Assembly (NCBI GenBank): GCA_016209705.1 | Contig: JACQVR010000094.1 | Coordinates: 64 to 64,063 of the forward strand | Reading direction: 5' to 3' | DNA from: Planctomycetota bacterium | GTDB taxonomy: Bacteria; Planctomycetota; MHYJ01; JACPRB01 | Length of the DNA stretch: 64,000 nucleotides | Part shown: in pieces, positions 36,835 to 64,000 of the stretch | How the letters are laid out: each line of letters starts with the position of its first letter | Numbering within the stretch: the stretch's first letter is position 1 | Notes under the pieces: generated by a model | Told to the model about the DNA's origin: nothing | The model's database searches: none | The model's input: the letters and a program-made list of their open reading frames with translations, nothing else | Translations under genes and position numbers: made by a program

Positions 36835-39159
36835 CTAGCGCATGAGGCGCCGCGCCGCTTCGACCACGTCCGAGGCTTTGGGGAGATGCGCCCACTCGAG
36901 GGGCGGCGCGTACGGCACCGGCTGGTCCGGAGCCGCCACCCGCGCGATCGGCGCTTCCAGTTCGTAGATCGCCTTCTCCGCGACGAGGGCCGCCAGCTCC
37001 GCGCCCGGCCCGCCGCGACGGGAATCCTCGTGCAGGACGAGGAGGCGGTGCGTCTTCGCGACGGAGTTCAGCAGTGCCTCCTCATCCAGCGGAACCAGCG
37101 AACGGAGATCGAGCACTTCGAGCGAGATGCCTTCGGCATGAAGCGTCTGAGCGGCGTCCAGCGCCGTCCACGCCATCGCGCCGTAGGTGGCGCATGTGAC
37201 GTCCTTCCCTTCGCGGCGCACTTCGGCTTTCCCGATCGGAACTTCAAAATCGCCCCCCAGCGGAACCTCTTCGAGCAGATCGGTCCGGAACAAGGAGTAG
37301 AGCCCCTTCGATTCCAGATAGATCACGGGATTCCCGTCGCGCACGGCCGCGACGAGCAAACCTTTCGCGTCGGATGGCGTGGACGGCGCCACGATCTTCC
37401 AGCCCGGAGTGCGCAAAAACCAAGCTTCCGGACACTGTGAATGAAACGGGCCTCCGCCCAGCAGGCGATTCATCGTTCCCGTCGCGCCCCCGTACGGCAG
37501 CCGCACGACCATCGGAACGCGCTTTCCGTACCTCCAATGGATCTTCGCCGCGTTGTTGACGAACGCGTTGAACCCCGGCGTCAGGAAATCCGCGAATTGC
37601 ATCTCGACGATCGGCCGCTTCCCCATCAGGGCCGCGCCTACCGCCGCGCCCACGATCGCCGACTCCGCCAGCGGCGTGTTCAGCACGCGGTCCGCCCCGA
37701 AGCGTTTCGCCAACCCGCGCGTCACGCCGAAGGCGCCGCCGTAGCGGCCGCCGACGTCTTCTCCCAGAAGAAAGACGCGCGGATCGGATTCCAGGAGTTC
37801 CGATAGCGCCAGACGCACCGCTTCGTCGTAGCCCGCCCGCTTCGTCGCGCGCGCAGAGGGAGGGGGCGTCGCATCCTCCCGCACGGCGAATACGCGTTCG
37901 ACCTGCGGAGCCGGATCCGGCCACGGCGCCGCTTCAACCTTTCGAGCGGCGGCCTCCACCACAGCGGCGACGTCCCGGCGCATCCGCTCGGGATCGCTCG
38001 CTTCCAGAATACCCTCGTCCAGCAGGCGCTTCTCATAAAGCTCGATGGGATCGGCCTTCTCCCATAAGGCCCGTTCCTCGTCGAGCTCGTAGCCGGGAAC
38101 CTTGTGTTGCGGGACGCCGTGAAAGCGTTCGTCGTCATGATGCGCGTGTCCCGCCCGGCGGTACGTCACGAGCTCGATGAGCGCCGGCCCCTTGCCGGCC
38201 CGGGCGCGCTCCGCCGCCCACGCGGTCGCGGCGGCGATCTCGTCGGGGTCGTTGCCGAAAATCGTGAGGCCGGGGATCCCGTATCCGGCGCCTTTCGCCG
38301 CGAACCGGCGCGCGGCGGTCTGCTCGCTCCAGTGCGTCCCCAGCGCCCAGTGGTTGTTCTGGACGAAGAAGATCATGTTCAGTCGCTGCGCCGCCGCGAA
38401 ATTGATGGCCTCGTGCCATTCGCCCAGACTGGATCCCCCTTCGCCGATGAACGACACGGCCACGCGATCGCTCCGGTCGAGCTTGAAGGCGTACGCGACG
38501 CCGATCAGCGTCTGCGTGGCGATGGCCAGGGGCGCCGTCGCCGGCAGCACGCCGCATTCCAGATCGCCGATGTGCAGATCGCGCCCTCCCATGGGACCGC
38601 CGAGTTTGCCGGATTGCGCGCAGAGGACGTTCTCGACGTCGCCCGACCACATGAGCTGGACGCCGACGTCACGAATGATGGGCGCGACGAGGTCCCCGCC
38701 CGGCCCGCGGCGCAGTCGGGCCGCGACGCCCACGATCGCCTCCTGCCCCCAGGAACGAAATCCTTTTTGGGGCGAGGGATAGACCGTCCCGTCGGGAGCC
38801 GTCCAGGCGATCTTCTTTTCGACGAACCAGCGCTTGCACAGGTTGTCGACCTCGCGCGTCAGCAACATGCCACGATACATCTCGCGGCGCTCGCCGGCGG
38901 TGAGCGACTTCTTGATCTCCCGCCGCCGCACGAATCCGTCGAGCTGCTCCAGCAGCGCCTCGCGGGTCCAACCCGCCGCCTCGCCGGCGGTGACGCCGGG
39001 CCACAGCGGCGTGGGATCGGCGGAGATGCGCTGGATGGCCTTGCGCAGGTCCCCCAGCGAGGTGGCCTCCGGAATCAGATACGGCGCCTCGACCGCCAGG
39101 AAATCGAGCAAGGCGCGATCCACGCCAGGGGGAGCTTTCGGCATGCCGAGCGAAAACAT
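36835..39159 (-). CDS. Fused 2-oxoacid dehydrogenase E1 component alpha+beta (TPP-dependent; BCKDH/acetoin-DH type).
   Basis: The N-terminal half carries a TPP-binding E1-alpha region (GDLECGVLPATAPL, IGEGGSSLGEWHEA). The C-terminal half is E1-beta/transketolase-like (LGEDVGGRYGGAFGVTRGL). A single 774-aa ORF. Confidence 0.85.
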   Translation of the reverse strand: MFSLGMPKAPPGVDRALLDFLAVEAPYLIPEATSLGDLRKAIQRISADPTPLWPGVTAGEAAGWTREALLEQLDGFVRRREIKKSLTAGERREMYRGMLLTREVDNLCKRWFVEKKIAWTAPDGTVYPSPQKGFRSWGQEAIVGVAARLRRGPGGDLVAPIIRDVGVQLMWSGDVENVLCAQSGKLGGPMGGRDLHIGDLECGVLPATAPLAIATQTLIGVAYAFKLDRSDRVAVSFIGEGGSSLGEWHEAINFAAAQRLNMIFFVQNNHWALGTHWSEQTAARRFAAKGAGYGIPGLTIFGNDPDEIAAATAWAAERARAGKGPALIELVTYRRAGHAHHDDERFHGVPQHKVPGYELDEERALWEKADPIELYEKRLLDEGILEASDPERMRRDVAAVVEAAARKVEAAPWPDPAPQVERVFAVREDATPPPSARATKRAGYDEAVRLALSELLESDPRVFLLGEDVGGRYGGAFGVTRGLAKRFGADRVLNTPLAESAIVGAAVGAALMGKRPIVEMQFADFLTPGFNAFVNNAAKIHWRYGKRVPMVVRLPYGGATGTMNRLLGGGPFHSQCPEAWFLRTPGWKIVAPSTPSDAKGLLVAAVRDGNPVIYLESKGLYSLFRTDLLEEVPLGGDFEVPIGKAEVRREGKDVTCATYGAMAWTALDAAQTLHAEGISLEVLDLRSLVPLDEEALLNSVAKTHRLLVLHEDSRRGGPGAELAALVAEKAIYELEAPIARVAAPDQPVPYAPPLEWAHLPKASDVVEAARRLMR

Positions 39160-39184: not shown

Positions 39185-39280
39185 TGTTACAAAACATTTT
39201 CAAAATATATCGTAACGTTACAATATATTTTGAAAACTATTTGTAACTGTTACATAAAGTTCTCAAAACTTATTGTAACG
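39185..39280. promoter_or_regulatory. AT-rich operator cluster C. Three consecutive GTTAC-N19/20-GTAAC dyads including TCGTAACGTTACAA, in the divergent region between the E1 fusion gene and trpD.
   Basis: Sequence is TGTTACAAAACATTTTCAAAATATATCGTAACGTTACAATATATTTTGAAAACTATTTGTAACTGTTACATAAAGTTCTCAAAACTTATTGTAACG. A TTGACA -35 box follows at 39282. Confidence 0.5.
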
Positions 39281-39436
39281 CTTGACAGGGAACGGGGCGG
39301 CTGATTGAATGCCGCTTGCTATGAAACGTTCCGCCACGCGACGCACGTCCGGCATGTGGCGACGCTCTGCCTAGGGCGGAGAACGTTCAGCGTTCCTGGC
39401 CTTCCCTCTTTCGTTCCCGATCCCCGTGGGAACCCG

Positions 39437-40495
39437 ATGTCCCAAGCATTTTCCGGAGCCACTGCCATGAAAGACGTGCTCGAACAACTGATTCAAGGAC
39501 GGCATCTCGCCGAGACCACCGTCCGCCACGTGATCTCCGAATGCGTCGAGGGGCGGCACACGCCCGCGCAGATGAGCGCGTTCCTGACCGCCATGCGCAT
39601 GAAAGGCGAGAGCGCCGGCGAACTCACGGAACTGGCGCGGACCCTGCGGGACATGGCCGTCCGGCCGAACATCCCGCGCCGCCCCTTGATCGACACCGCC
39701 GGAACCGGAGGGGATTCCAGCGGAAGCTTCAACATCTCGACGCTGACCGCGCTTCTGCTCGCATCGCTGGGCCTGCCCGTCGCCAAGCACGGCGGCCGCG
39801 CGGTGTCGGGCCGCGTCGGCAGCGCCGACCTGTTGGAGAGCCTCGGGATCCGCATCACGCTCACGCCCGAGGAAGTCGAAACGTCGCTGGATCACGCCAA
39901 CTTCGCCTTCCTCTTCGCGCCCGCGTTCCATCCCGCGACGAAAGTCTTTTCTCCCATCCGCAAGGAACTGGGGATACGCACGATCTTCAATCTGCTGGGG
40001 CCGTTGACCAATCCGGCTCGGCCGGAATACCAATTGCTCGGCGTCTACCCGCCCGGCGCCGGGCCGCTCATGGCGGAGGCATTGCGAGCCCTCGGCGTCC
40101 AGCGCGCCACGATCGTGCGCGGCGGCAACGGATGGGATGAAGCGACCTTGGGCGAACCCGTTTCGCTGATCGACGTCAGCCCGGAAAGAATCACTTCCCG
40201 CGAGCTGGATCCAAGGGAGCTGGGATTCACTCCCGCTCCCGCCGATACGTTGCGCGTCTCGAGTCGCGAAGATGCGCTCCGCTTGGCGCGCGCGGTCCTC
40301 GACGGCGCCGACGGGCCGGCGGCGGATACGGTCCTGCTGAACACGGTCCTGGCCCTGCAAACGCGCGATCCGTCGCTTTCGCCCGCTCAGGCCAGAACGA
40401 CGGCCGAGGAAGCGCTTCGAAAGGGCGCGCTGCGCGACACGGTCTCCAAGCTCCGGCACCTTTTCCCGGTGGAATCATGCTCGAAGACATCCTGA
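39437..40495 (+). CDS. trpD: Anthranilate phosphoribosyltransferase.
   Basis: GTGGDSSGSFNIST and KHGGRAVSGRVGSADLLE are present. Alternative start 39466. Confidence 0.9.
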   Translation: MSQAFSGATAMKDVLEQLIQGRHLAETTVRHVISECVEGRHTPAQMSAFLTAMRMKGESAGELTELARTLRDMAVRPNIPRRPLIDTAGTGGDSSGSFNISTLTALLLASLGLPVAKHGGRAVSGRVGSADLLESLGIRITLTPEEVETSLDHANFAFLFAPAFHPATKVFSPIRKELGIRTIFNLLGPLTNPARPEYQLLGVYPPGAGPLMAEALRALGVQRATIVRGGNGWDEATLGEPVSLIDVSPERITSRELDPRELGFTPAPADTLRVSSREDALRLARAVLDGADGPAADTVLLNTVLALQTRDPSLSPAQARTTAEEALRKGALRDTVSKLRHLFPVESCSKTS

Positions 40496-41229
40496 ACCGA
40501 ACCCGCGATCTGGTCGCGCTGCGGAAGGAGAAATTCCCGCTGCGGAAGCCGGAGATTCTCCCTGCGAACGGAAGGCGATTCGCGGACGCCCTCCGCGGAG
40601 GAAGTCGGATCAACCTGATCGCGGAGGTGAAACGCGGATCCCCCACCGCGGGATTCATGCGGCCGCTGGACGCCGCCGCGACCGCCGCCGCGTACGTCGA
40701 AGGCGGGGCGCGCGCCGTCTCGGTCCTCACCGAGCCCCATTTCTTCTTCGGCTCGCTCGAGGATCTCGAGCATGTGGCGCGACGCATCGAGGCGCCGGTG
40801 CTGAGGAAGGATTTCATCCTGGACGAATATCAGCTCTACGAATCGGCCGCCCGCGGCGCCGACGCCGTGCTGCTCATCGCGGCCGTCCTGCCGGAGGCGG
40901 AGCTGAAAGCGTTCTTTCAGCTCGCCGTCCATCTGGGGTTGTGCCCCCTGGTGGAAGTCCACGAGCCCCCGGAACTCGACTCCGTCTTGAAGCTGGACCC
41001 TCCCGTGATCGGCGTCAATCAGCGCAACCTGAAAACATTCCGAATCGACTCGAAGGCGGAACTCGTGGAACGGATCCCGGCCGGCATCGTTCGCGTCATC
41101 GAAAGCGGCATTCGAGACGGCGACCAGGCGCGGAAGTTCAAACTCATGGGCTACGATGCATGCCTGGTCGGAGAAGCGCTGGCGCGAAGCGACGACCCCG
41201 CGGCCGCCGTGCGGAAGCTCCTCGAATGA
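40477..41229 (+). CDS. trpC: Indole-3-glycerol phosphate synthase.
   Basis: LIAEVKRGSPTAG, GARAVSVLTE and GVNQRNLKTF are present. Confidence 0.9.
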   Translation: MLEDILNRTRDLVALRKEKFPLRKPEILPANGRRFADALRGGSRINLIAEVKRGSPTAGFMRPLDAAATAAAYVEGGARAVSVLTEPHFFFGSLEDLEHVARRIEAPVLRKDFILDEYQLYESAARGADAVLLIAAVLPEAELKAFFQLAVHLGLCPLVEVHEPPELDSVLKLDPPVIGVNQRNLKTFRIDSKAELVERIPAGIVRVIESGIRDGDQARKFKLMGYDACLVGEALARSDDPAAAVRKLLE

Positions 41230-43759: not shown

Positions 43760-44197
43760 ATGTTTGAGATGCGTGGCAACGGGCGAGAAGAGAAGCCTCC
43801 CTCGTGGGCTCGAAGTCTTTCCGCCGAAATGCGCGCTTACCTCCGGCACGGCTCCGAGGAAGCGGCAAGGAATCGGAAGGAGGCGCAAAAGGATCGGCAG
43901 GAAATGCGGGCCTATTTCCAGAAAGTAATCGAGAAGGCCGATGCGGATCGGCGGGAAACGCGGGAGTACTTCCAGAAAGTGATCGCGAATGCTGAAGCGG
44001 ACCGGAAGGAAATGCGGGCCTTCTTCCAAACCGTGGCCGCGCAGGCGGCGGACGACCGCGCGGACTTCAAGGCGGATCGGGCCAACTTCGCCAAGCTCAC
44101 CGCGATGGTCGTTAAGATCGGCAACGAGATCATCAGGCGGCTCGAAGATATCCAGCGAACGCTCTACATCCAAGGCAACGGGCGTAGGAATAGGTAA
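43760..44197 (+). CDS. Hypothetical repeat protein. It has 3 copies of an ~19-aa EMRAYFQKVIxxAxADRxE unit plus a C-terminal module DFKADRANFAKL...IQGNGRRNR that is duplicated at 50410-50549.
   Basis: Internal periodicity is clear. The C-terminal 46 aa are ~80% identical (about 75% at DNA level) to the tail of ORF 50247..50549. Confidence 0.5.
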   Translation: MFEMRGNGREEKPPSWARSLSAEMRAYLRHGSEEAARNRKEAQKDRQEMRAYFQKVIEKADADRRETREYFQKVIANAEADRKEMRAFFQTVAAQAADDRADFKADRANFAKLTAMVVKIGNEIIRRLEDIQRTLYIQGNGRRNR

Positions 44198-55571: not shown

Positions 55572-55883
55572 ATGGACATGCGAAAATTGGCGCTCGTCGT
55601 GGTGGCGGCGGTCTTCCTCGGAGCGACCGTCGGATGCGGCGGACCGTTCACGGTCAGCCGCAGCGTCAACGACTGGTACAACCAGAAGTACGGGGAGACG
55701 CCCTGGCTGTATGGGAACATGGTGTCCAGCGCCGTTTACGGGCTGGCCATGGGCCTGTCCTGGACGGCGGACATGCTGGTCGTGAACACCTATCACTTCT
55801 GGGTGAAGGACGCGCAGCCGATCGGCGACGGCAAGGGAACGACGTTCGAGCACAAGAATCCGACCTCGGGCAAGAAGCGGTAG
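55572..55883 (+). CDS. Small hypothetical lipoprotein.
   Basis: Lipobox FLGATVGC is present in a 103-aa ORF with RBS GGAGGAG. A strong terminator follows. Confidence 0.55.
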   Translation: MDMRKLALVVVAAVFLGATVGCGGPFTVSRSVNDWYNQKYGETPWLYGNMVSSAVYGLAMGLSWTADMLVVNTYHFWVKDAQPIGDGKGTTFEHKNPTSGKKR

Positions 55884-55901
55884 GCCCGGCAAAGTCTGCG
55901 G

Positions 55902-55940
55902 AAAACCCCCGGCGCCCGCCGGGGGTTTTTCTTTTTACCG
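55902..55940 (+). terminator. Rho-independent (bidirectional) terminator.
   Basis: AAAACCCCCGGCGCCCGCCGGGGGTTTTTCTTTTT has an 8-9 bp GC stem flanked by an A-tract and a T-tract. Confidence 0.8.
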
Positions 55941-56015
55941 CGCGATGAACGACTGGACATCGCCTGTGGCGATGAGATCCCCGGAAATGCCCACGTTTCC
56001 CGCCGATCCCGTGGG

Positions 56016-56063
56016 AAACGACGAATAGCTGAAGATTAATCCCGGTTTCTATGCTACACACTC
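56016..56063. repeat. 48-bp exact direct repeat, copy B. It supplies the last 4 codons and the stop of the M48 protease gene.
   Basis: It is identical to 54672-54719. The minus-strand reading GAG TGT GTA GCA TAG within the repeat ends ORF 56049..57419. Confidence 0.6.
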
Positions 56064-57419
56064 AACAACGTCGATCTTTTGCCCGCAGCGGTCGCAGCGG
56101 ACGAAAGGCGCCTTGAACTTCGGGCTCAAGTGCTTCACGGCGCCGCAGGCGCACTTGAACGACTCCCAACCGTGGGACGACCTCTCGTAGCGAAGGATGG
56201 GAACGGACGGCGCTTCGGGGGCGGGGACGGGTTGCGCGGAGGGAACCGCGCGGGTGCGGCCGCAGCGAGGGCACGGGATTCCCTCCCTTTTCATCTCGGC
56301 GGGAACTTTGATTTTCACCCCGCAGGCGCAGGTCAGCAGCACCAGCCCGTTCAACCGGCCCAGGAGGTCGTGCACTTCTTCGGCGCGCCGAACCGCCTCT
56401 TCGCGGGACTCCCGATCCACGGAGGGAGCGCGCACCGGGACGGGCGTGTCCTTGGACAGCGTCGTTTCATCGAGGCAGGGACGTTTCCCGCCTCGGACGC
56501 GCCGGAAGGCCTCCTCGTAGGCGGAATACCCGGCGCCGGCCATCCCGCGAAGGATCTTCACGCGCTCCTCCGTGGGCGGATGGGTGGAAAAAAGCTGGAA
56601 GGATGCCAGGGATTGCAAAGGGTTGATGATGTACATCGGCGCCAGAACCCGGCTGGCCCCGCCTACCGCACTCGCGCCCGCCGCGATCTTCTCCAGCGCG
56701 GATGCCAATCCTTCCGGATAGCGCGTGAATCGCGCGGCGCACGCGTCCGCCAGATGCTCCCGCCGGCGGGAACACGCCAAATACAAAAGGCGGGCGAAGA
56801 ACGGAGCCAGAATCGCCGCCGCCAGCGCGGCCAGGAAGACCGCCGCGTGGCCGCCTCGCGAGGAGCGCCGGCGTCCGCCTCCCCACCACGCCACTCGCAG
56901 GACCGCCTCCGACAGAAGCACGATCGCGCCCAGCATCACCCCGGCCAAGGTCATGAACGACGAGTCTCGATTGCGGATATGTCCGATCTCGTGCCCGATC
57001 ACTCCCTGCAATTCGTCCCGACTGAGCCGCTCCAGCAAACCCGACGTCACGGCCACGCTGCGGCGCCGGCCCCGTTCCACGGCGAACGCGTTCGGTCCGG
57101 GGTCCCAGATCAGGTAGACGTCCGGAGGGCCGCCCAGTCCGGACGCGATCGACATCTCTTCCACGATGTTCCAGAGCTGGGGCGCGTCCTCCTTCCCGAT
57201 GCGCTGCGCCCCGGCCGTCATCAGCAGCACTCGATCGCCTTCGATCGTCGCTCCGAACCACAGCACGAGCCACAGGCCGGACGCCGCCAGCATTCCGAGC
57301 CACCCGGCCTCCGGAGCCACCGCGGAACCCACCAGAAAACCGAAGCCAAGAAGGATCGCTCCCATGCATCCGACAAGCACCCAGGAGCGGCGGCGGTTTC
57401 GACGGATGGCGGCCCACAT
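56049..57419 (-). CDS. M48 family (HtpX-like) zinc metalloprotease with a C-terminal double zinc-ribbon domain.
   Basis: The HEIGHIRNRD (HExxH) motif is present along with TM segments. The C-terminus reads CACGVKIKV...CPRCG...CACG...CDRCGQ. The antisense ORF 56079..57467 is artefact. Confidence 0.8.
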   Translation of the reverse strand: MWAAIRRNRRRSWVLVGCMGAILLGFGFLVGSAVAPEAGWLGMLAASGLWLVLWFGATIEGDRVLLMTAGAQRIGKEDAPQLWNIVEEMSIASGLGGPPDVYLIWDPGPNAFAVERGRRRSVAVTSGLLERLSRDELQGVIGHEIGHIRNRDSSFMTLAGVMLGAIVLLSEAVLRVAWWGGGRRRSSRGGHAAVFLAALAAAILAPFFARLLYLACSRRREHLADACAARFTRYPEGLASALEKIAAGASAVGGASRVLAPMYIINPLQSLASFQLFSTHPPTEERVKILRGMAGAGYSAYEEAFRRVRGGKRPCLDETTLSKDTPVPVRAPSVDRESREEAVRRAEEVHDLLGRLNGLVLLTCACGVKIKVPAEMKREGIPCPRCGRTRAVPSAQPVPAPEAPSVPILRYERSSHGWESFKCACGAVKHLSPKFKAPFVRCDRCGQKIDVVECVA

Positions 57420-57421
57420 AA

Positions 57422-57463
57422 GAGTCCCGAGTCCCGAGTCGCGAGTCCTGAGTCACGAGTCGC
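57422..57463. repeat. Tandem heptanucleotide repeat (GAGTCNC) x6 in the lemA-M48 intergenic region.
   Basis: Units are GAGTCCC GAGTCCC GAGTCGC GAGTCCT GAGTCAC GAGTCGC. The unit length is not a multiple of 3, and every unit contains GANTC. Confidence 0.7.
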
Positions 57464-57485: not shown

Positions 57486-58052
57486 TTAAAACTTCACTTT
57501 CGGAGCTTCGCGCGCCGCTTCGTCCGCCAGCTCGAAATGCGCCGCCGGACGGAACGAGAACATCGCGGCGACGAAGTTCGAAGGAAAGGTCTCCAGCTGC
57601 GTGTTGAAGTGCATCACGCTGTCGTTATAGAACTGCCGGGCGAACCCCACCTTGTTCTCGGTCGAAGTCAGCTCCTCCTGAAGCGCCAGGAAGTTTCGAT
57701 TGGCCTTGAGGTCCGGATACTGCTCGACCACCAGCATGAGCCGGCCCAGCGCGCCGCTCAGGGCGGATTCCGCGGCGATCCGTTCCTCGACCGTGCCGGC
57801 GCCCATCGCCTGCGCCCGAGCCTTGGTGACATTCTCGAGCGTGGCGCGCTCGTGGGCGGCGTACCCCTTGACGGTCTCCACCAAATTCGGGACCAGGTCG
57901 TGCCGGCGCTTGAGCTGCACGTCGATCTGCGCCCACGCGTTCTTGGTCTCGTTGCGCAGCCGGACCAGGCCGTTGTACAGGCCGATCACCACGATTCCGA
58001 AGAGAAAGAAGACGCCCACGACGACGGCCAGCACGATGAGCGCGGTTGTCAC
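57486..58052 (-). CDS. lemA: LemA family protein.
   Basis: A TM anchor is followed by YNGLVRLRNETKNAWAQIDVQLKRRHDLVPNLVETVKGYA. A GTG start follows the RBS AGGAAGGAGGG. The upstream part of the track ORF is not coding. Confidence 0.8.
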   Translation of the reverse strand: MTTALIVLAVVVGVFFLFGIVVIGLYNGLVRLRNETKNAWAQIDVQLKRRHDLVPNLVETVKGYAAHERATLENVTKARAQAMGAGTVEERIAAESALSGALGRLMLVVEQYPDLKANRNFLALQEELTSTENKVGFARQFYNDSVMHFNTQLETFPSNFVAAMFSFRPAAHFELADEAAREAPKVKF

Positions 58053-58465
58053 GTTTCCCTCCTTCCTGATTCCCCCAGATCCTTCCGGAACAACTCCCCG
58101 AAGAAGCGCGCCACCGCTCCCTCCCCGCCGGCGGGACCGGCGCGAACCAACGCTTCCACTTCGCCGCGGTCGAACCACAAACCATGTCCGAGCGGGCATC
58201 GATCGATCTCGACGTCATGGACGGGGGCCCGCCGGAGCTTCCGCCCGCACCGCAGGCAACGCCGCGCTCCGTGCGCTTCGCCGGCCGCCCGACCCAGCGC
58301 CCGGGACCATCCACCCGAATCCGCCCCGGAAAGCTCGACCAGCCGTTCCAGTTCGCCGGCGTCCAGCCACGTCCCCCCACATTCGAGGCACCGATCGACT
58401 TCGACTCCTTCAAGCTCAAAAACCACGAGCGGTGCTTCGCACCCCGGACATCGCAGATTCGTCAT
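58049..58465 (-). CDS. zf-TFIIB-type zinc-ribbon domain protein with two CPxC...CxxC modules.
   Basis: LRCPGCEAPL...DRCLECGGTWLD is repeated as RCLRCGRKL...DRCPLGHGLWFD. Confidence 0.65.
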   Translation of the reverse strand: MTNLRCPGCEAPLVVFELEGVEVDRCLECGGTWLDAGELERLVELSGADSGGWSRALGRAAGEAHGARRCLRCGRKLRRAPVHDVEIDRCPLGHGLWFDRGEVEALVRAGPAGGEGAVARFFGELFRKDLGESGRRET

Positions 58466-60226: not shown

Positions 60227-60983
60227 CCCGCTGCCGAGTCTCGCAAGCGGGCCGTCGCTCCTGCGGAACCGTATTCTGGAACTTGAGAGGGCGCGGTAGG
60301 ATTCGGGGAAAGCACTGGAAAGGAGGAAGGTAAATGACCTGTCCCCAAATCCAATCCCAACGGCGCCGGTCGAACCGCGCGCGAAGCTCCTCCACCGCCG
60401 CTCGCGCCCGGTTCGCGGCCGCTTCGGCCTCGAGCATTCTGGTCCGCAGGAGTTCCAGTTCCGCGCGACGCGCCTCCTCGGCCCCCCGCTCCGCTTCCCG
60501 CTTCAGGATGGCGTCCGCTTCGCTTTCCAGAACCCACCGGCCCCGGAAGCGGACGAAACCTTCGGCCGCGCGGATTTCGACCTCCGTCATCCATCGCCCT
60601 TCATGCCGCCGGTAGCCGAGCGCGGCCCGAGCGCCGGCGTGATCGGGTTCTCGAACCACGACTTCCTCGAAGAGCTTGCGGGCGCGAGTGAGCAAATCCC
60701 GCTCGGCGGCCCACCGGGCCAGCCGGTATCGACCCTCCACATCGCCGGGCCGCAGGGCGGCCGCGCGCCGCTCCAACTCGTCAAGCGCCGAAGGCCCTCG
60801 GTGAATGCGGGCCACGTCGGATCGCCGGAGCGTGATCGTGCCATAATCCAACTCCACCACCACGCTCGACGCGGATTCCGTCACTCGGCCTTCGAACCTG
60901 GCTCCGTTGCGCAGTACGACTTCGTCCGCGCGCGCCGGCACGCGGAGAAGCGCAAGCCCCACGATCCACGCAGCGTATTTCAT
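60198..60983 (-). CDS. Hypothetical secreted protein (Arg/Glu-rich coiled-coil C-terminus).
   Basis: Signal peptide MKYAAWIVGLALLRVPARA is present. The extent is uncertain because the upstream track ORF portion is artefact and the 3' end overlaps the leader element. Confidence 0.4.
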   Translation of the reverse strand: MKYAAWIVGLALLRVPARADEVVLRNGARFEGRVTESASSVVVELDYGTITLRRSDVARIHRGPSALDELERRAAALRPGDVEGRYRLARWAAERDLLTRARKLFEEVVVREPDHAGARAALGYRRHEGRWMTEVEIRAAEGFVRFRGRWVLESEADAILKREAERGAEEARRAELELLRTRMLEAEAAANRARAAVEELRARFDRRRWDWIWGQVIYLPPFQCFPRILPRPLKFQNTVPQERRPACETRQRDAGTEGFSR

Positions 60984-61031
60984 GAGTCTATATATTATAA
61001 GCCTGGAGCGGCGCGATTGATTCGAAATACG

Positions 61032-63383
61032 ATGGGCGGCACGCGGACCCGTGCGGAAGCGGCGGGGATTTTCCTGCTCAGCGCCGCCTGTCTGTTCTTC
61101 GAGCTCCACGCGTTCCGATTCTTCACGCTTTCCCAATGGCACCATTTTGGAGCGCTCGTCGTTTCGCTGGCGCTCTTCGGCGGCGCGGCGGCGGGTGTCG
61201 CCCTCGCGCTGTCGAGGCGCCTTCGGCGGGCGGATCCCGGGACCGCTGCGGCGACATGCGCCGTCGCCATGGCGGTCTCCGCGTGGGCTGGCCTGCACGC
61301 CGCTTCCTGGATCCCTTTCCGTCCGGTTCGCGCCTCGGTGGGACCGGAAGAACTGGCGGCGGTGGCGGGATGGTATCTATGTTTCGGCGTCCCGATGTTC
61401 TTCGCCTCGTTGGGCGTGCTGTACTTCCTGCTCAGGCGTCCCGGGAACGTGGGGACGATCTATGCGTCCAATCTTCTCGGCGGGGCGGCGGGCGTAGCGT
61501 CGGCCCTTTGGCTGGAAAGCGCCCTCGACGGGCAGGAAGCGGCGGCAACGGCCGTTTTGGGCCTCTGCGCCGCCACGTGCTTCGTTCATCTTTCCCCGTG
61601 GCGGATCGGCGGCGCGTCCGTTTTCTTGCTGCTCGCCGCCTGGATGCGTCCCGAGATCCCGGTATCCGAATTCAAGGCCCTGGCGAGCCTGCCGAATACG
61701 CTGGGAGCGCGCAGCGTTCATTCTGGTCGTGCCGAAGGACATCACGTGGCGTTGTTGAAGGTTCCCACGTTTCGGCGCGCGCCGGGACTCTCGCTGGCCT
61801 ATCGTGGAAGGGTTCCGACCGGTCTGACCGTCGTGGTGGACGGCGATCGTCCCGATGTGCTTCTCGAACCGCCCGTGGATCCGGATCTGCCGGCCCATCT
61901 GCCGGGAGCCGTCGGCCACGAGCTGGCCCCCGAAGGGCGAGCTTTGATCCTGGACGCGGCGGGGAATCTGCCGGTCCTGACCGCCAACCGATATGGGAGA
62001 TCTTCGCTGGTGCATCTCCCTCCCGAAATCGCGGGCGTTTGGTTCGACGTTCAGGGCTTGGATGCCCGCCGATATTTCCCGGGGGCGACGGTGGTGACGG
62101 TTCCTCCGAGAACGCTGCTGCGGGCCCAACCCGACGGCTCGGTTGCGTATGTGGAGATCGCCTTGCGTGACGGCGCGGCCACCATGACGGCCGCTCTGGG
62201 ACAGCCGACCGAAGGCTATCTGTTCACGGTGGAAGCGTGGAGGGAAATGCTGAGGTGTCTGGCTCCGGACGGCCTCTTGTGCGTGACGCGATGGCTCGAA
62301 TTTCCTCCGCGCGAAAGCTTGCGGCTGGCCGCGACCGCCGTCGAGGCGTTGAAAGAAGGCGCTCCGGCGGAGCGCTGCCTCGTGGCGTTTCGGTCGCTCC
62401 AGACGATCACCTTTCTAATCAGGCCTCGAGGATTCGATCCAGCTTCGCGCCGACGGTTGGCCGAAGCGCTGCGAAGGCGATCCTACGAATTGATCTATCC
62501 TGCGGGAGGAGGCGGAGTTCATGCCGCCGCCCTCGATGCGTTGCTGCGCGATCCGGAGAAGTTGTACGCTTCCTATCCCTTCTACATACGTCCCGCGACG
62601 GATGACCGGCCCTTCCCATGGTTTTTCCTCAAGCCGGGACGACTGGGCGAGTTGCGCGAACGGGCGGACATCGGCTGGCGCCCCCTGCTGGACGGGGGGT
62701 TTCTTTTGGGAGCCGCGGCGGTGCAGGCGGCCTTCATCGGCTTGATCTTGATCGCGCTTCCCTTTCTGCGAGCGCGCGATCGGCCTCCCGTATCGTCGGC
62801 GGTCGCGCCCGGAATCTACTTCTTCTTGATCGGCCTCGGATTTCTATTCGTTGAAATCCCTCTCGCGCAAATCTTGACGCGATCGGCGCCTTCGGCCGCG
62901 CATGCGTTCGGACTCGTGATCGCGACCATGTTCCTGGGCGCCGGCACCGGTTCCTACTTGTCCGGACGTCTGAGACTGGATCGTGTGGCCGTCGTCGTGG
63001 CCGCCGCCGCGCTGGTGATCGGTGCGCAGTGTGCCTTGTTGCCGCGGATCGGGACGTGGACGCTGGTTCCGGGAGGGTGGTGGATGGTTGGATCCCTTCT
63101 GGGCGCGCTTCCCTCCGTGGCCATGGGCATGGCCATGCCGGGAGGATTTCGCTGGGCGGGGCCGCTCGGCTCTTGGGGACCTTCCTGGGGATGGGCGGTC
63201 AATGGATGCGCCTCGGTGGTTTCGCCGCTTTTGGCGTCGATCCTGGCACTCGGCGTCGGGTTCCGTTTTGTGCTCGGCGTGGCGGCGGTCCTATACGTTA
63301 CCGCCGGAGGAATGCTTTATTTCAAGTCCCGAGTCGTGAGTCCGGAGTCCCGAGTCGAAGACGAGCTATCGCCTTCTTCATGA
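61032..63383 (+). CDS. Polytopic membrane protein with a spermidine/spermine-synthase-like (aminopropyltransferase) domain.
   Basis: N-terminal TM helices are followed by a central methyltransferase-like fold (LLCVTRWLEFPPRESL) and C-terminal TM helices. The extreme C-terminus overlaps GAGTC heptamer repeats and may terminate earlier. Confidence 0.55.
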   Translation: MGGTRTRAEAAGIFLLSAACLFFELHAFRFFTLSQWHHFGALVVSLALFGGAAAGVALALSRRLRRADPGTAAATCAVAMAVSAWAGLHAASWIPFRPVRASVGPEELAAVAGWYLCFGVPMFFASLGVLYFLLRRPGNVGTIYASNLLGGAAGVASALWLESALDGQEAAATAVLGLCAATCFVHLSPWRIGGASVFLLLAAWMRPEIPVSEFKALASLPNTLGARSVHSGRAEGHHVALLKVPTFRRAPGLSLAYRGRVPTGLTVVVDGDRPDVLLEPPVDPDLPAHLPGAVGHELAPEGRALILDAAGNLPVLTANRYGRSSLVHLPPEIAGVWFDVQGLDARRYFPGATVVTVPPRTLLRAQPDGSVAYVEIALRDGAATMTAALGQPTEGYLFTVEAWREMLRCLAPDGLLCVTRWLEFPPRESLRLAATAVEALKEGAPAERCLVAFRSLQTITFLIRPRGFDPASRRRLAEALRRRSYELIYPAGGGGVHAAALDALLRDPEKLYASYPFYIRPATDDRPFPWFFLKPGRLGELRERADIGWRPLLDGGFLLGAAAVQAAFIGLILIALPFLRARDRPPVSSAVAPGIYFFLIGLGFLFVEIPLAQILTRSAPSAAHAFGLVIATMFLGAGTGSYLSGRLRLDRVAVVVAAAALVIGAQCALLPRIGTWTLVPGGWWMVGSLLGALPSVAMGMAMPGGFRWAGPLGSWGPSWGWAVNGCASVVSPLLASILALGVGFRFVLGVAAVLYVTAGGMLYFKSRVVSPESRVEDELSPSS

Positions 63384-63410
63384 CCGGACTCATGACTCAT
63401 GACTCGTGAC
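63324..63410. repeat. GAGTCNN heptamer repeats in inverted arrangement (4 units forward at 63324-63358, 3 units reverse at 63386-63410) between convergent genes.
   Basis: Forward units are GAGTCGT GAGTCCG GAGTCCC GAGTCGA. Reverse units are GACTCAT GACTCAT GACTC. Together they can form a long imperfect hairpin. The unit matches the 57422-57463 array. Confidence 0.6.
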
Positions 63411-63417
63411 GCAAGAC

Positions 63418-64000
63418 TTATTTTGCTCGTTCGATCTTTCCCGTCATCGGCACGAACCGCACGCCGCCGTGGTCTTCCTGGATCAGTTCGCTTCCATTTT
63501 TCCTGATGCGAAACAAAGTCTGTCCGAAAAAAGGTTCGCCGATCGGAGCGACCAGGCGGCCGCCATCGGCCAATTGATCCAGGAGCGGCGGCGGCACGTG
63601 TCCCGCCGCGGCGGTGATGAGAATGGCCTGGAACGGCGCGGCCTCGGGCCACCCCTCGTATCCGTCGGCGGCTTTCGTGCGGACTTTGCTGTAGCCGAGT
63701 CGATCCAGCCGTTCGCGAGCTTCTTTGGCCAGCTCCGGAATGATCTCGATGGAATACACTTCGGCTCCGCACTCGGCGAGGACCGCAGCTTGATACCCGG
63801 AGCCGGTTCCGATCTCCAGCACCCGATCGCCCGGCTTGACAGCGGCCAGCTCCGTCATGAGCGCCACAATGTAGGGTTGGCTGATCGTCTGTCCGTATCC
63901 GATGGGCAGAGGACCGTCGTCGAACGCGCGGTGGCGCTGATCGGGAGGGACGAATTCCGGCCGGGGCGTCTTCCGCAGGGCGCGCAGGACCGAGACGACG
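63418..64000 (-). CDS. pcm: Protein-L-isoaspartate O-methyltransferase (N-terminus beyond the window end).
   Basis: SAM motif VLEIGTGSGYQAAVLA is present. The C-terminus GVRFVPMTG...* is at 63418, and the frame remains open to position 64000. Confidence 0.8.
   Translation of the reverse strand, partial: VVSVLRALRKTPRPEFVPPDQRHRAFDDGPLPIGYGQTISQPYIVALMTELAAVKPGDRVLEIGTGSGYQAAVLAECGAEVYSIEIIPELAKEARERLDRLGYSKVRTKAADGYEGWPEAAPFQAILITAAAGHVPPPLLDQLADGGRLVAPIGEPFFGQTLFRIRKNGSELIQEDHGGVRFVPMTGKIERAK

What the first reader, a model, noticed from the sequence alone, without database searches (positions are those of the whole stretch)
57422..57463. GAGTC-containing heptamer tandem arrays at two gene boundaries
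Six tandem GAGTCNC units sit between lemA and the M48 protease start (57422-57463). Four forward plus three inverted units (63324-63410) sit between two convergent gene ends and can pair into a long hairpin. A 7-nt unit in or near coding sequence is a classic slipped-strand phase-variation substrate. Every unit also contains GANTC, the CcrM-type methylation/HinfI site, so these arrays would be dense methylation targets if such an enzyme exists in this organism.
Basis: seen in the sequence. Interest (0 to 1): 0.5.

Follow-up and report, generated by a model that had tools for sequence, protein, structure and literature searches.

The report
Seven-base tandem repeats at gene boundaries
Two short stretches made of a repeated 7-base unit (GAGTC plus two variable bases) sit at gene ends in a planctomycete genome; they are real, but they belong to a widespread and still unexplained class of bacterial 7-base repeats, and nothing I could test supports an on/off switch or a role as methylation targets.

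Summary
Array A (57422-57463) is six GAGTCNN units in the 66-nt lemA-M48 spacer and ends 2 nt before the M48 ATG. Array B is a forward arm (63324-63358) facing an inverted arm (63387-63419); it folds into a long hairpin (-47.6 kcal/mol, z -6.9) between a 926-aa ORF and pcm. These are the only short-period tandem arrays in the 64 kb.

They belong to the known class of heptanucleotide intergenic repeats (cyanobacterial STRRs, Xanthomonas GGGANTC repeats, Beggiatoaceae TAACTGA repeats). In related Planctomycetota, period 7 scores highest in 23 of 41 intergenic spacers, with many different cores. Orthologous sites there are either empty or hold other heptamers. Arrays of four or more GAGTCNN units occur in over 120 genomes across many phyla.

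Phase variation is not supported:
- The units are imperfect.
- Neither array sits where a change in unit number would switch a gene.
- The few near-identical assemblies available show no 7-nt indels.

The methylation reading has no support and is mostly untestable here.

Most likely the arrays are slippage-born repeats gained in this lineage. B probably serves as a 3' hairpin or terminator and has replaced the end of the upstream ORF. A is an unstructured leader abutting the start codon.

New member of a known kind; modest interest.

The parts
57422..57463 (-). Array A: six direct heptamer units. They read GAGTCNN on the + strand and NNGACTC in the sense of the lemA-M48 transcript. The array ends 2 nt before the M48 ATG.
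   Evidence: No significant fold on its own (z 0.35; z -1.5 for the whole spacer).
57486..58052 (-). lemA. Probably 188 aa starting at GTG 58052; the open frame extends to 58199. Its stop codon is at 57486-57488, 22 nt upstream of array A in the sense of transcription.
   Evidence: Pfam PF04011, E 4e-63. The 188-aa form aligns end to end with the LemA of relative L126.
56049..57419 (-). M48 (HtpX-like) metallopeptidase gene, 456 aa, with its ATG at 57417-57419.
   Evidence: Pfam PF01435, E 2e-31. Homologues of 451-458 aa cover 98-99% of it. The N-terminus MWAAIR matches MWDAIQ of L002.
63324..63358 (+). Array B forward arm: AAGTCCC GAGTCGT GAGTCCG GAGTCCC GAGTC. It lies inside the last 19 codons of ORF 60603-63383.
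63359..63386 (+). Central, non-repeated part of hairpin B, with a small inner stem. It contains the ORF's stop codon TGA at 63381-63383.
   Evidence: The sequence occurs once in the window.
63387..63419 (-). Array B inverted arm: on the - strand AAGTCTT GCGTCAC GAGTCAT GAGTCAT GAGTC. It abuts and overlaps the pcm stop codon (63418-63420).
   Evidence: It pairs with the forward arm.
60603..63383 (+). Membrane-protein ORF of unknown family. The open frame is 926 aa; NCBI aa (HY716_12300), which would start near 61017. Its 19-aa C-terminal tail KSRVVSPESRVEDELSPSS is repeat-encoded.
   Evidence: P0121, 100% identity. The tail is not homologous to the 64%-identical orthologue P0122.
63418..64000 (-). 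pcm (protein-L-isoaspartate O-methyltransferase). It runs off the end of the window and converges on the ORF above.
   Evidence: Pfam PF01135, E 5e-45. 81% identical to the pcm of L129.

Best explanation
The two loci are copies of a dispersed family of 7-base simple-sequence repeats (GAGTCNN) in an uncultured Planctomycetota genome. They are the same kind of element as cyanobacterial STRRs, Xanthomonas GGGANTC repeats and Beggiatoaceae TAACTGA repeats.

Shown:
- The arrays are real.
- Period 7 is the only short tandem period in the window, and it dominates intergenic DNA in related genomes.
- The orthologous sites in relatives are either empty or carry heptamer arrays with different cores, so both arrays were gained in this lineage.

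Inferred:
- The arrays arise and change length by slipped-strand mispairing or local (inverted) duplication, in spacers where extra DNA is tolerated.
- Array B is transcribed into a hairpin of about 40 bp that caps the 3' ends of two convergent genes, acting as a terminator or as protection against 3' degradation. Its gain replaced the original last codons and stop codon of the upstream ORF.
- Array A is an unstructured repeat leader inside the lemA-M48 operon, directly abutting the M48 start codon. Its last GGGACUC units may serve as a weak ribosome-binding context and may modulate translation of M48. It does not act as an on/off switch.
- The strict conservation of GAGTC against free variation at the two NN positions suggests some sequence-specific constraint that I could not identify.
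For: Reality and periodicity.

Hairpin B: -47.6 kcal/mol, z -6.85 on the + strand and -46.8 kcal/mol, z -5.65 on the - strand. If AAGTC/GACTT pair, the extended stem is followed by AUUUUG.

The B site is empty in a relative: in L129 the orthologous ORF (64% identical) and pcm (81% identical) overlap by 19 nt with no repeat, and the window's 19-aa tail has no counterpart there.

Orthologous lemA-M48 spacers:
- L126 has 12 nt and no repeat.
- L123 and L128 have hairpins of AACGG/CCGTT-core heptamers.
- L002 has a hairpin of TCAGC-core heptamers.

Lineage-wide pattern: period 7 gives the highest self-match in 23 of 41 intergenic spacers of four relatives. Lag-7 arrays dominate. Many fold as hairpins with z -3 to -8, in co-directional, convergent and divergent gene contexts.

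They come from Cyanobacteria, Planctomycetota, Acidobacteriota, Gemmatimonadota, Bacteroidota, Verrucomicrobiota, Xanthomonadales and others, and the same unit often recurs at several loci of one genome.

Literature:
- Heptamer repeats are over-represented in bacteria. Xanthomonas (GGGANTN)n arrays are intergenic, heterogeneous, sometimes occur as inverted pairs, and have no demonstrated regulatory or phase-variation role (PMC4692102).
- TAACTGA arrays lie within a few nt of start codons (PMC4679880).
Against: - The functions proposed for A and B are inferred from position and folding only; there are no transcript data.
- The terminator scan did not call hairpin B. The stem is longer than the scan counts, the central part exceeds its loop limit, and the U-run is short. 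The - strand has no U-tract after the stem.
- Local slippage alone explains neither why two loci 6 kb apart share the GAGTC core nor why the core is nearly invariant (3 mismatches in 80 core positions) while NN varies (17 of 32; my count).
- The window itself has far fewer arrays than its relatives (3 segments in 64 kb against up to 7 in 14.7 kb). The lineage-wide pattern may therefore not transfer fully to this genome.
Confidence: 0.6

Rival explanations
1. Phase-variable contingency loci. Slippage changes the number of units and so switches or tunes expression of the M48 peptidase, or changes the C-terminus of the 926-aa protein.
For: - A 7-nt unit shifts the reading frame, and the forward arm of B lies in coding sequence.
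- Array A abuts a start codon.
- Heptamer arrays differ in unit number between species-level relatives.
- Rehm et al. report extensive length variation between Xanthomonas species.
Against: - The units are imperfect (84% and 80% matches).
- No promoter-like site overlaps A.
- Unit changes in A leave the geometry between the last unit and the ATG unchanged.
- Unit changes in B alter only a non-conserved tail, with stop codons in all frames.
- The flanking genes have housekeeping-type Pfam families or none.
- The copy number is identical in the second assembly.
- Three near-identical strains of a relative show no 7-nt indels across about 15-18 kb that holds several arrays.
Confidence: 0.08
2. 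Arrays of sequence-specific recognition sites. GAGTC (within GANTC/GASTC) is kept because a protein reads it. Candidates are a DNA methyltransferase or a type IIS restriction-modification system of the MlyI/PleI/BstNBI kind, a DNA-binding regulator, or an RNA-binding protein with a footprint of about 7 nt (Csp, S1 or CsrA type) acting on the lemA-M48 leader.
For: - The core is nearly invariant while NN varies freely across 16 units at two loci.
- Both loci share the core.
- GAGTC-core arrays recur at several loci within other genomes.
- GAGTC is a known type IIS and nickase site with a GASTC methyltransferase (PMC4081073).
- MacGregor proposed heptamer-binding S1, Csp or CsrA proteins for arrays that abut start codons.
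Against: - No methyltransferase ORF lies in the window.
- Outside the arrays, GAGTC and GANTC are neither avoided nor enriched.
- Relatives use many unrelated cores within a single genome.
- Only 2 of 190 unselected heptamer arrays contain GANTC.
- A permuted core (GTGAC) and GAATC are at least as frequent as GAGTC in viral contigs.
Confidence: 0.15
3. Small mobile hairpin elements (REP- or MITE-like). Array B, and the hairpins in relatives, would be inserted as units at gene ends. Array A would be a half-element or a decayed one.
For: - Clean presence or absence at orthologous sites.
- Loss from, or absence in, L126, the sister of L128, which carries the element.
- The same core at dispersed loci.
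- The variable positions are complementary between the two arms of the L128 hairpin, as expected of an inverted duplicate.
- AT-rich ATTT-like motifs flank B on both sides.
Against: - There is no clear target-site duplication or terminal inverted repeat beyond the heptamers themselves.
- The central sequence of B is unique in the window.
- Each spacer in the relatives has its own core rather than one consensus element.
- No transposase or RAYT was identified (not searched systematically).
- Direct-only arrays such as A do not fit a hairpin element.
Confidence: 0.12

Closest known systems
Xanthomonas/Nostoc G-rich heptamer repeats, GGGAATC / (GGGANTN)n and GGGGA(C/T)T (Rehm et al. 2015, PMC4692102)
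   Same: - 7-nt unit, intergenic and close to ORF ends.
- Heterogeneous units with conserved and variable positions.
- 2-26 units per array, and many dispersed loci.
- Some occur as inverted pairs able to form stem-loops.
- The associated genes are ordinary metabolic genes.
- On the gene strand the window's unit reads GGGACTC, one base away from GGGAATC. Lysobacteraceae loci in my scan switch between GATTCGG and GAGTCGG within a single array (L097).
   Different: - The organism is a planctomycete.
- Only two of the six units in A carry GGG, so a G-quadruplex is not possible.
- Only two loci can be seen here, against about 186 per Xanthomonas genome.
- The variable positions differ: NN lies outside GAGTC here, whereas positions 5 and 7 of GGGANTN vary there.
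Cyanobacterial STRR (short tandemly repeated repetitive) heptanucleotides
   Same: Tandem heptamers in non-coding DNA, with several families per genome and function unknown. GAGTCAG and GAGTCGG arrays are abundant in Anabaena, Nostoc, Microcoleus, Moorena, Okeania and other genomes in my scan.
   Different: STRRs were defined in heterocystous cyanobacteria with other units (three heptanucleotides in Calothrix PCC 7601, as cited). Here the host is a planctomycete, and the number of copies per genome is unknown.
TAACTGA intergenic direct repeats of marine Beggiatoaceae (MacGregor 2015, PMC4679880)
   Same: Direct heptamer arrays of 2-6 units lying within a few nucleotides upstream of start codons. 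They overlap the place where a ribosome-binding site would be and usually lack a canonical Shine-Dalgarno sequence. Array A (6 units, ending 2 nt before the ATG) has exactly this layout.
   Different: The unit is different. Only one such array is seen here, against 169 sets there. Here the array lies between two genes of an operon.
Phase-variable simple-sequence contingency loci (for example the Haemophilus and Neisseria tetranucleotide and heptanucleotide tracts)
   Same: Tandem short units near or inside coding sequence, with a unit length that is not a multiple of 3.
   Different: Here the units are imperfect, the genes are housekeeping, the arrays do not sit where a length change would switch a gene, and no length variation was seen in the few comparisons possible.
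Intrinsic terminators and REP/BIME-type extragenic palindromes
   Same: Hairpin B lies at the junction of two convergent genes, is very stable, and is followed by a short U-run on the + strand.
   Different: The stem is built from heptamer repeats and is far longer than a typical terminator stem. The stop codon of the upstream ORF lies in the loop. There is no U-tract on the - strand, and no RAYT-type gene is known here.

Membership tests
Heptanucleotide intergenic repeats (STRR / GGGANTC-type / TAACTGA-type) | Head-to-tail tandem copies of a 7-nt unit, with at least 2-4 units | tested here: met
   6 units in A; 5 plus 5 units in B. Lag 7 is the only short period present in the window.
Heptanucleotide intergenic repeats (STRR / GGGANTC-type / TAACTGA-type) | Located in non-coding DNA close to ORF starts or ends | tested here: met
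   A lies wholly in the 66-nt lemA-M48 spacer. B lies at the junction of two convergent genes, with its forward arm overlapping only a non-conserved 19-codon tail.
Heptanucleotide intergenic repeats (STRR / GGGANTC-type / TAACTGA-type) | The same unit dispersed at many loci of the genome | tested here: inconclusive
   Two loci 6 kb apart share the GAGTC core. The rest of the 126-kb contig and of the genome could not be read. The source was identified only through P0121.
Heptanucleotide intergenic repeats (STRR / GGGANTC-type / TAACTGA-type) | The host lineage shows a general excess of period-7 repeats in intergenic DNA | tested here: met
   In four relatives with 59-60% identical M48, period 7 scores highest in 23 of 41 spacers. 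Lag 7 dominates in relatives L002, L123, L126, L128 and in L129. The window itself has only 3 segments in 64 kb.
G-quadruplex-forming heptamer repeats (the subset studied by Rehm et al.) | At least four G3 tracts in one array | tested here: not met
   On the - strand, A reads GCGACTC GTGACTC AGGACTC GCGACTC GGGACTC GGGACTC, which has only two GGG tracts.
Phase-variable contingency locus | The repeat sits where a change in unit number switches a gene: inside the conserved reading frame, or between promoter elements | tested here: not met
   A is intercistronic with no promoter-like site. A change of one or two units in B alters only the tail.
Phase-variable contingency locus | Unit number varies among reads or closely related strains | tested here: inconclusive
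   The second assembly also has 6 units, but it may come from the same sample. Three near-identical strains of a relative show no 7-nt indels. No reads were available, and a metagenome scan for the flank found nothing.
Phase-variable contingency locus | Perfect or near-perfect repeat units | tested here: not met
   84% matches in A and 80% in both arms of B.
CcrM/HinfI-type (GANTC) or MlyI-type (GASTC) methylation target cluster | The recognition site is present in every unit | tested here: met
   All six units of A and seven units of B contain GAGTC or GACTC.
CcrM/HinfI-type (GANTC) or MlyI-type (GASTC) methylation target cluster | A cognate methyltransferase is encoded in the genome | not testable with these tools
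   No ORF of at least 150 aa in the 64-kb window carries a credible (D/N/S)PP(Y/F/W) methyltransferase motif.
CcrM/HinfI-type (GANTC) or MlyI-type (GASTC) methylation target cluster | The site shows a genome-wide bias (avoidance or enrichment), as expected for a restriction-modification or regulatory motif | tested here: not met
   Outside the arrays GAGTC/GACTC occurs 93 times against 96.3 expected (z -0.5), and GAATC/GATTC 198 times against 195. The apparent depletion against dinucleotide shuffles disappears under a maximal-order Markov model.
Intrinsic (Rho-independent) terminator (array B) | A stable GC-rich stem-loop followed at once by a U-tract, downstream of the stop codon | tested here: inconclusive
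   The stem is very stable. AUUUUG follows only if the outer AAGTC/GACTT pair is counted. The consensus scan did not call it. The stop codon lies in the loop, and the - strand has no U-tract.

The most novel reading that the evidence does not exclude
In this planctomycete clade, and perhaps in all heptamer-rich bacteria, a dedicated process generates or maintains 7-nt periodic arrays made of a fixed 5-nt core plus 2 free positions. One form of this would be a nucleic-acid-binding protein with a 7-nt footprint, or a polymerase or repair property. The resulting arrays and hairpins would then act as modular ends and leaders of transcription units. On this reading, the GAGTC family in this genome would mark a sequence-specific factor that could be found by phylogenetic profiling.
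Probability: 0.12. Interest if true: 0.6.

Novelty: new member of a known kind. Interest (0 to 1): 0.3.

Why it matters
On its own the finding is a routine example of a repeat class known since 1990 (STRRs). That class was shown in 2007 to be over-represented in bacteria, and its origin and function are still unexplained.

What the follow-up adds:
- The class extends to uncultured Planctomycetota. In some of these genomes, period 7 is the strongest self-repeat period in more than half of the intergenic spacers examined, and opposed arrays often form long hairpins.
- Orthologous spacers turn over between an empty state and arrays with unrelated cores.
- GAGTC-core arrays recur across many phyla.

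These genomes could serve as material for asking why 7 is the preferred unit length, and whether such arrays act as terminators or translation leaders. For annotation there is a practical lesson. The arrays can overwrite gene ends, as with the 19-aa repeat-encoded tail here, and gene callers disagree on the start of the gene downstream of one: one public assembly calls M48 33 aa short.

Tried and rejected
- Exact-protein look-ups failed for M48 (456 aa), LemA (237 aa and 188 aa) and the NCBI protein P0121. The source contig beyond the window could therefore not be fetched.
- A metagenome scan for the left flank of array A plus its first unit gave 0 hits, so no other strains were available to test for copy-number variation.
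- GAGTC looked depleted against dinucleotide shuffles (106 against 177). I took this as a possible sign of a restriction-modification system. It vanished under a maximal-order Markov model, so I rejected it.
- GANTC seemed enriched among heptamer cores in the relatives (5 of 24). This was not reproduced in the larger unselected set (2 of 190), so I rejected it as a general feature.
- I asked whether the GAGTC core is special. It is not special.
- The 963-aa protein in L126 is not an orthologue of the 926-aa ORF. The true orthologue came from a homology search.
- The test of whether variable positions are concentrated in unselected arrays gave only a weak signal (0.65 against 0.56). Amplification of variant units confounds it.
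- The crude test of whether GAGTC arrays avoid long open frames gave 48% against 79% for random segments. The direction is right, but spurious ORFs in GC-rich DNA make it weak.
- No Rfam family matches either array.
- I considered tandem-repeat synthesis driven by a nickase, because GAGTC is the BstNBI/BspD6I site. That lead rests on memory; one search turned up no paper on nickase-driven repeat synthesis. The diversity of cores argues against it as a general cause.

Full report
**1. What is there**

Array A (57422-57463) reads GAGTCCC GAGTCCC GAGTCGC GAGTCCT GAGTCAC GAGTCGC. TRF reports period 7, 5.7 copies and 84% matches.

Array B has two arms:
- The forward arm (63324-63358) reads AAGTCCC GAGTCGT GAGTCCG GAGTCCC GAGTC.
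- A 28-nt unique centre follows.
- The inverted arm (63387-63419) reads, on the - strand, AAGTCTT GCGTCAC GAGTCAT GAGTCAT GAGTC.

This is far from chance:
- The two-unit pattern, with up to one mismatch, occurs 17 times against 6.4 +/- 2.6 in shuffles. Twelve of the 17 lie in these two loci.
- A self-match scan at lags 4-12 (28-nt window, at least 75% matches) finds exactly three segments in the 64 kb. They are these three, all at lag 7.

**2. Gene context**

Both genes around A are on the - strand. lemA (PF04011) ends at 57486. The M48/HtpX-like peptidase (PF01435) starts at the ATG at 57419. That start is supported by homologues of 451-458 aa covering 98-99% of the protein, and by a matching N-terminus in a relative. 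In the sense of the transcript the array therefore reads (NNGACUC)6 and ends 2 nt before the AUG, inside a 66-nt intercistronic spacer.

Around B, a 926-aa open frame runs in on the + strand. It has no Pfam family, and NCBI aa of it (HY716_12300, 'Planctomycetes bacterium'). pcm (PF01135) runs in on the - strand and continues past the end of the window. The forward arm encodes the last 19 residues of the + strand ORF, its stop codon lies in the centre of the hairpin, and the inverted arm abuts the pcm stop codon.

**3. Structure**

B folds into one long imperfect hairpin on either strand: -47.6 kcal/mol with z -6.85, and -46.8 kcal/mol with z -5.65. A on its own has no significant structure (z 0.35). 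No Rfam family matches either array. No sigma-70-like promoter is found near A or B, and the simple terminator scan does not call B.

**4. Orthologous sites**

The organism is a Planctomycetota MAG with no close relative in the collections. The best M48 homologues are 59-61% identical.

The lemA-M48 spacer in relatives looks like this:

| Locus | Spacer length | Content |
|---|---|---|
| L126 | 12 nt | no repeat |
| L123 (L124 and L125 identical) | 94 nt | hairpin of ACGGC/CCGT-core heptamers |
| L128 | 88 nt | hairpin of (NNCCGTT)3 facing (AACGGNN)7 |
| L002 | 133 nt | hairpin of (NNTCAGC)4 facing (GCTGANN)4 |

L126 is the sister of L128 (86% identical M48). L123 (76%) shares the AACGG element with L128. 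The element was therefore lost from L126.

At the B site, the 64%-identical orthologue of the ORF and the 81%-identical pcm in L129 overlap by 19 nt, with no repeat at all. Homology to the window's protein stops exactly where the forward arm begins.

Both arrays are thus gains in this lineage. B replaced the original end of the ORF.

**5. The wider pattern**

- In the four relatives, period 7 gives the highest self-match in 23 of 41 intergenic spacers of at least 25 nt.
- TRF and the lag scan are dominated by period 7.
- Many different cores coexist in one genome, for example CGATTNG, AACGGNN, GGAATNN, GCATCCN, GTTGACN and GAGTTCN. Some cores recur at several loci.
- About two thirds of the period-7 spacers I folded (14 of 22) have z of -2.3 or lower, most from opposed arrays, and they occur between co-directional, convergent and divergent genes.
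The hits come from Cyanobacteria, Planctomycetota, Acidobacteriota, Gemmatimonadota, Chloroflexota, Bacteroidota, Verrucomicrobiota, Actinomycetota, Xanthomonadales/Lysobacterales and others, and several genomes contribute more than one locus.
- Those same 8-kb loci hold 190 further period-7 arrays with other cores.
- In viral contigs, GAGTC-core arrays (116 stretches) are no more common than arrays with the permuted core GTGAC or with GAATC (both at least 120).

The window's arrays are therefore ordinary members of a very widespread kind of repeat, and GAGTC is one core among many.

**6. Testing the phase-variation reading**

- Neither array sits where a change in unit number would switch a gene. 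A is outside coding sequence and outside any recognisable promoter. Because it abuts the ATG, adding or removing units leaves the geometry between the last unit and the ATG unchanged.
- Simulated changes of -2, -1 and +1 unit in the forward arm of B alter only the non-conserved tail, with stop codons soon after in every frame.
- The units are heterogeneous.
- A second public assembly (Logan SRR12113390) matches the window over its first 1,850 nt, array included. It differs only at 6 positions within the last 23 nt of the contig, and it may come from the same sample.
- In a relative, three assemblies from different samples differ by 1-3 substitutions over 15-18 kb and show no 7-nt indel in any array.
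- This argues against hypermutability, but it cannot replace read-level data.

**7. Testing the methylation reading**

- Every unit contains GAGTC or GACTC, which fits GANTC. It also fits GASTC, the specificity of the MlyI methyltransferase, and GAGTC is the MlyI and BstNBI site (PMC4081073).
- No methyltransferase-like ORF lies in the window.
- The apparent depletion of GAGTC against dinucleotide shuffles disappears under a maximal-order Markov model: 93 observed against 96.3 expected. GAATC/GATTC is also at expectation.
- GANTC is not a general property of heptamer arrays (2 of 190).
- The reading is unsupported, but it cannot be excluded without the whole genome or a methylome.

**8. One observation remains unexplained**

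Across the 16 units at the two loci, the 5-nt core has 3 mismatches in 80 positions, all in edge units. The two NN positions depart from the commonest base at 17 of 32 positions and show at least nine different dinucleotides (my count). Hairpin pairing cannot explain this for A, which has no partner arm. Amplification of variant units explains part of such patterns in general, but not this many distinct variants. Together with the sharing of the core between two loci, it leaves room for a sequence-specific constraint or a means of dispersal. The same puzzle is unresolved for STRRs and for the Xanthomonas repeats.

**9. Most likely mechanism**

- Shown: these are lineage-specific heptamer arrays of a widespread class.
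- Inferred: they originate and change length by slippage or local (inverted) duplication in spacers that tolerate extra DNA.
- Inferred: B acts at the RNA level as a 3' hairpin for the two convergent genes. It may be a terminator on the + strand, where AUUUUG follows the extended stem, and a barrier to degradation on the - strand.
- Inferred: A is an unstructured leader whose last GGGACUC units provide at best a weak GGA-type ribosome-binding context 5 nt from the AUG. This layout matches the TAACTGA arrays that MacGregor described within a few nucleotides of start codons (PMC4679880).

**10. Comparison with what is known**

The closest described relatives are the Xanthomonas (GGGANTN)n and Nostoc heptamers. 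Those are intergenic, close to ORF ends, heterogeneous and sometimes in inverted pairs. They are associated with ordinary genes, and no regulatory or phase-variation role has been found for them (PMC4692102). On the gene strand the window's unit GGGACTC differs from GGGAATC by one base. With only two GGG tracts, however, array A cannot form a quadruplex. That paper cites an earlier finding that heptamers are over-represented among bacterial repeats, and the suggestion that this reflects the polymerase footprint.

**11. Verdict and limits**

This is a new member of a known kind.

The limits are:
- Only 64 kb of the genome is visible.
- There are no reads, transcripts or methylome.
- The nearest relatives are distant.
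- Gene maps for the 120 scan loci were crude.

Noticed in passing
L002, L123, L126, L128, L129 (relatives; for example L128 2034-2258, 3205-3292, 4664-4767, 8320-8431): In related Planctomycetota metagenome contigs, period 7 is the strongest self-repeat period in more than half of the intergenic spacers. The arrays have many different 5-6-nt cores, and many pair into long hairpins (z -3 to -8) in convergent, co-directional and even divergent (promoter) spacers. I found no description of this for the phylum in the papers searched.
   Followed up: partly
window 39185-39280: Three tandem AT-rich units of 31-32 bp, each bounded by the inverted repeat GTTACA...TGTAAC, in a genome of about 64% GC. 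They lie in the divergent spacer between an E1 dehydrogenase gene (36835-39159, - strand) and trpD-trpC (39305-41229, + strand). They look like a triple operator or other protein-binding array.
   Followed up: partly
window 43891-44028: A tandem repeat with a 54-nt period, 2.6 copies and 79% matches, inside ORF 43760-44197 (145 aa, no Pfam family). It would encode an 18-residue protein repeat.
   Followed up: no
window, whole (pentamer statistics): GGATC/GATCC is the most depleted pentamer under a maximal-order Markov model (320 observed against 383 expected, z -5.3). TCGCA/TGCGA comes next (z -5.3). This may be avoidance of restriction-modification sites (GGATC is the AlwI-type site).
   Followed up: no
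window 55620-55950: Several Rfam hits below threshold (mir-1197, BjrC68, rnk leader, BSnc120; all well under their gathering scores) cluster in one stretch downstream of the M48 gene. This suggests a structured RNA or a terminator region.
   Followed up: no
window 56049-57419, 60603-63383 and 57486-58199: Public start-codon calls disagree with the homology evidence.
- Logan calls M48 as 423 aa, although homologues support 456 aa starting right after array A.
- NCBI aa of the 926-aa open frame.
- LemA is probably 188 aa starting at GTG 58052, not the 237-aa open frame.
   Followed up: partly
L002 15608-15753 and L126 15656-15904: AT-rich perfect palindromes (for example AAAACAGAATAATATTCTGTTTT) sit upstream of AsnC-type regulator genes in two relatives, next to heptamer hairpins. 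They are probably operators.
   Followed up: no
L097 1908-1996 (Lysobacteraceae MAG) and L028, L052, L075: Single arrays switch core part-way along: GATTCGG x6 then GAGTCGG x7; GAGTCAG alternating with GAGACAG; GAGTCCT then GCGTCTT; GAGTAGG then GAGTCGG. A point change in one unit apparently spreads along an array in blocks.
   Followed up: no
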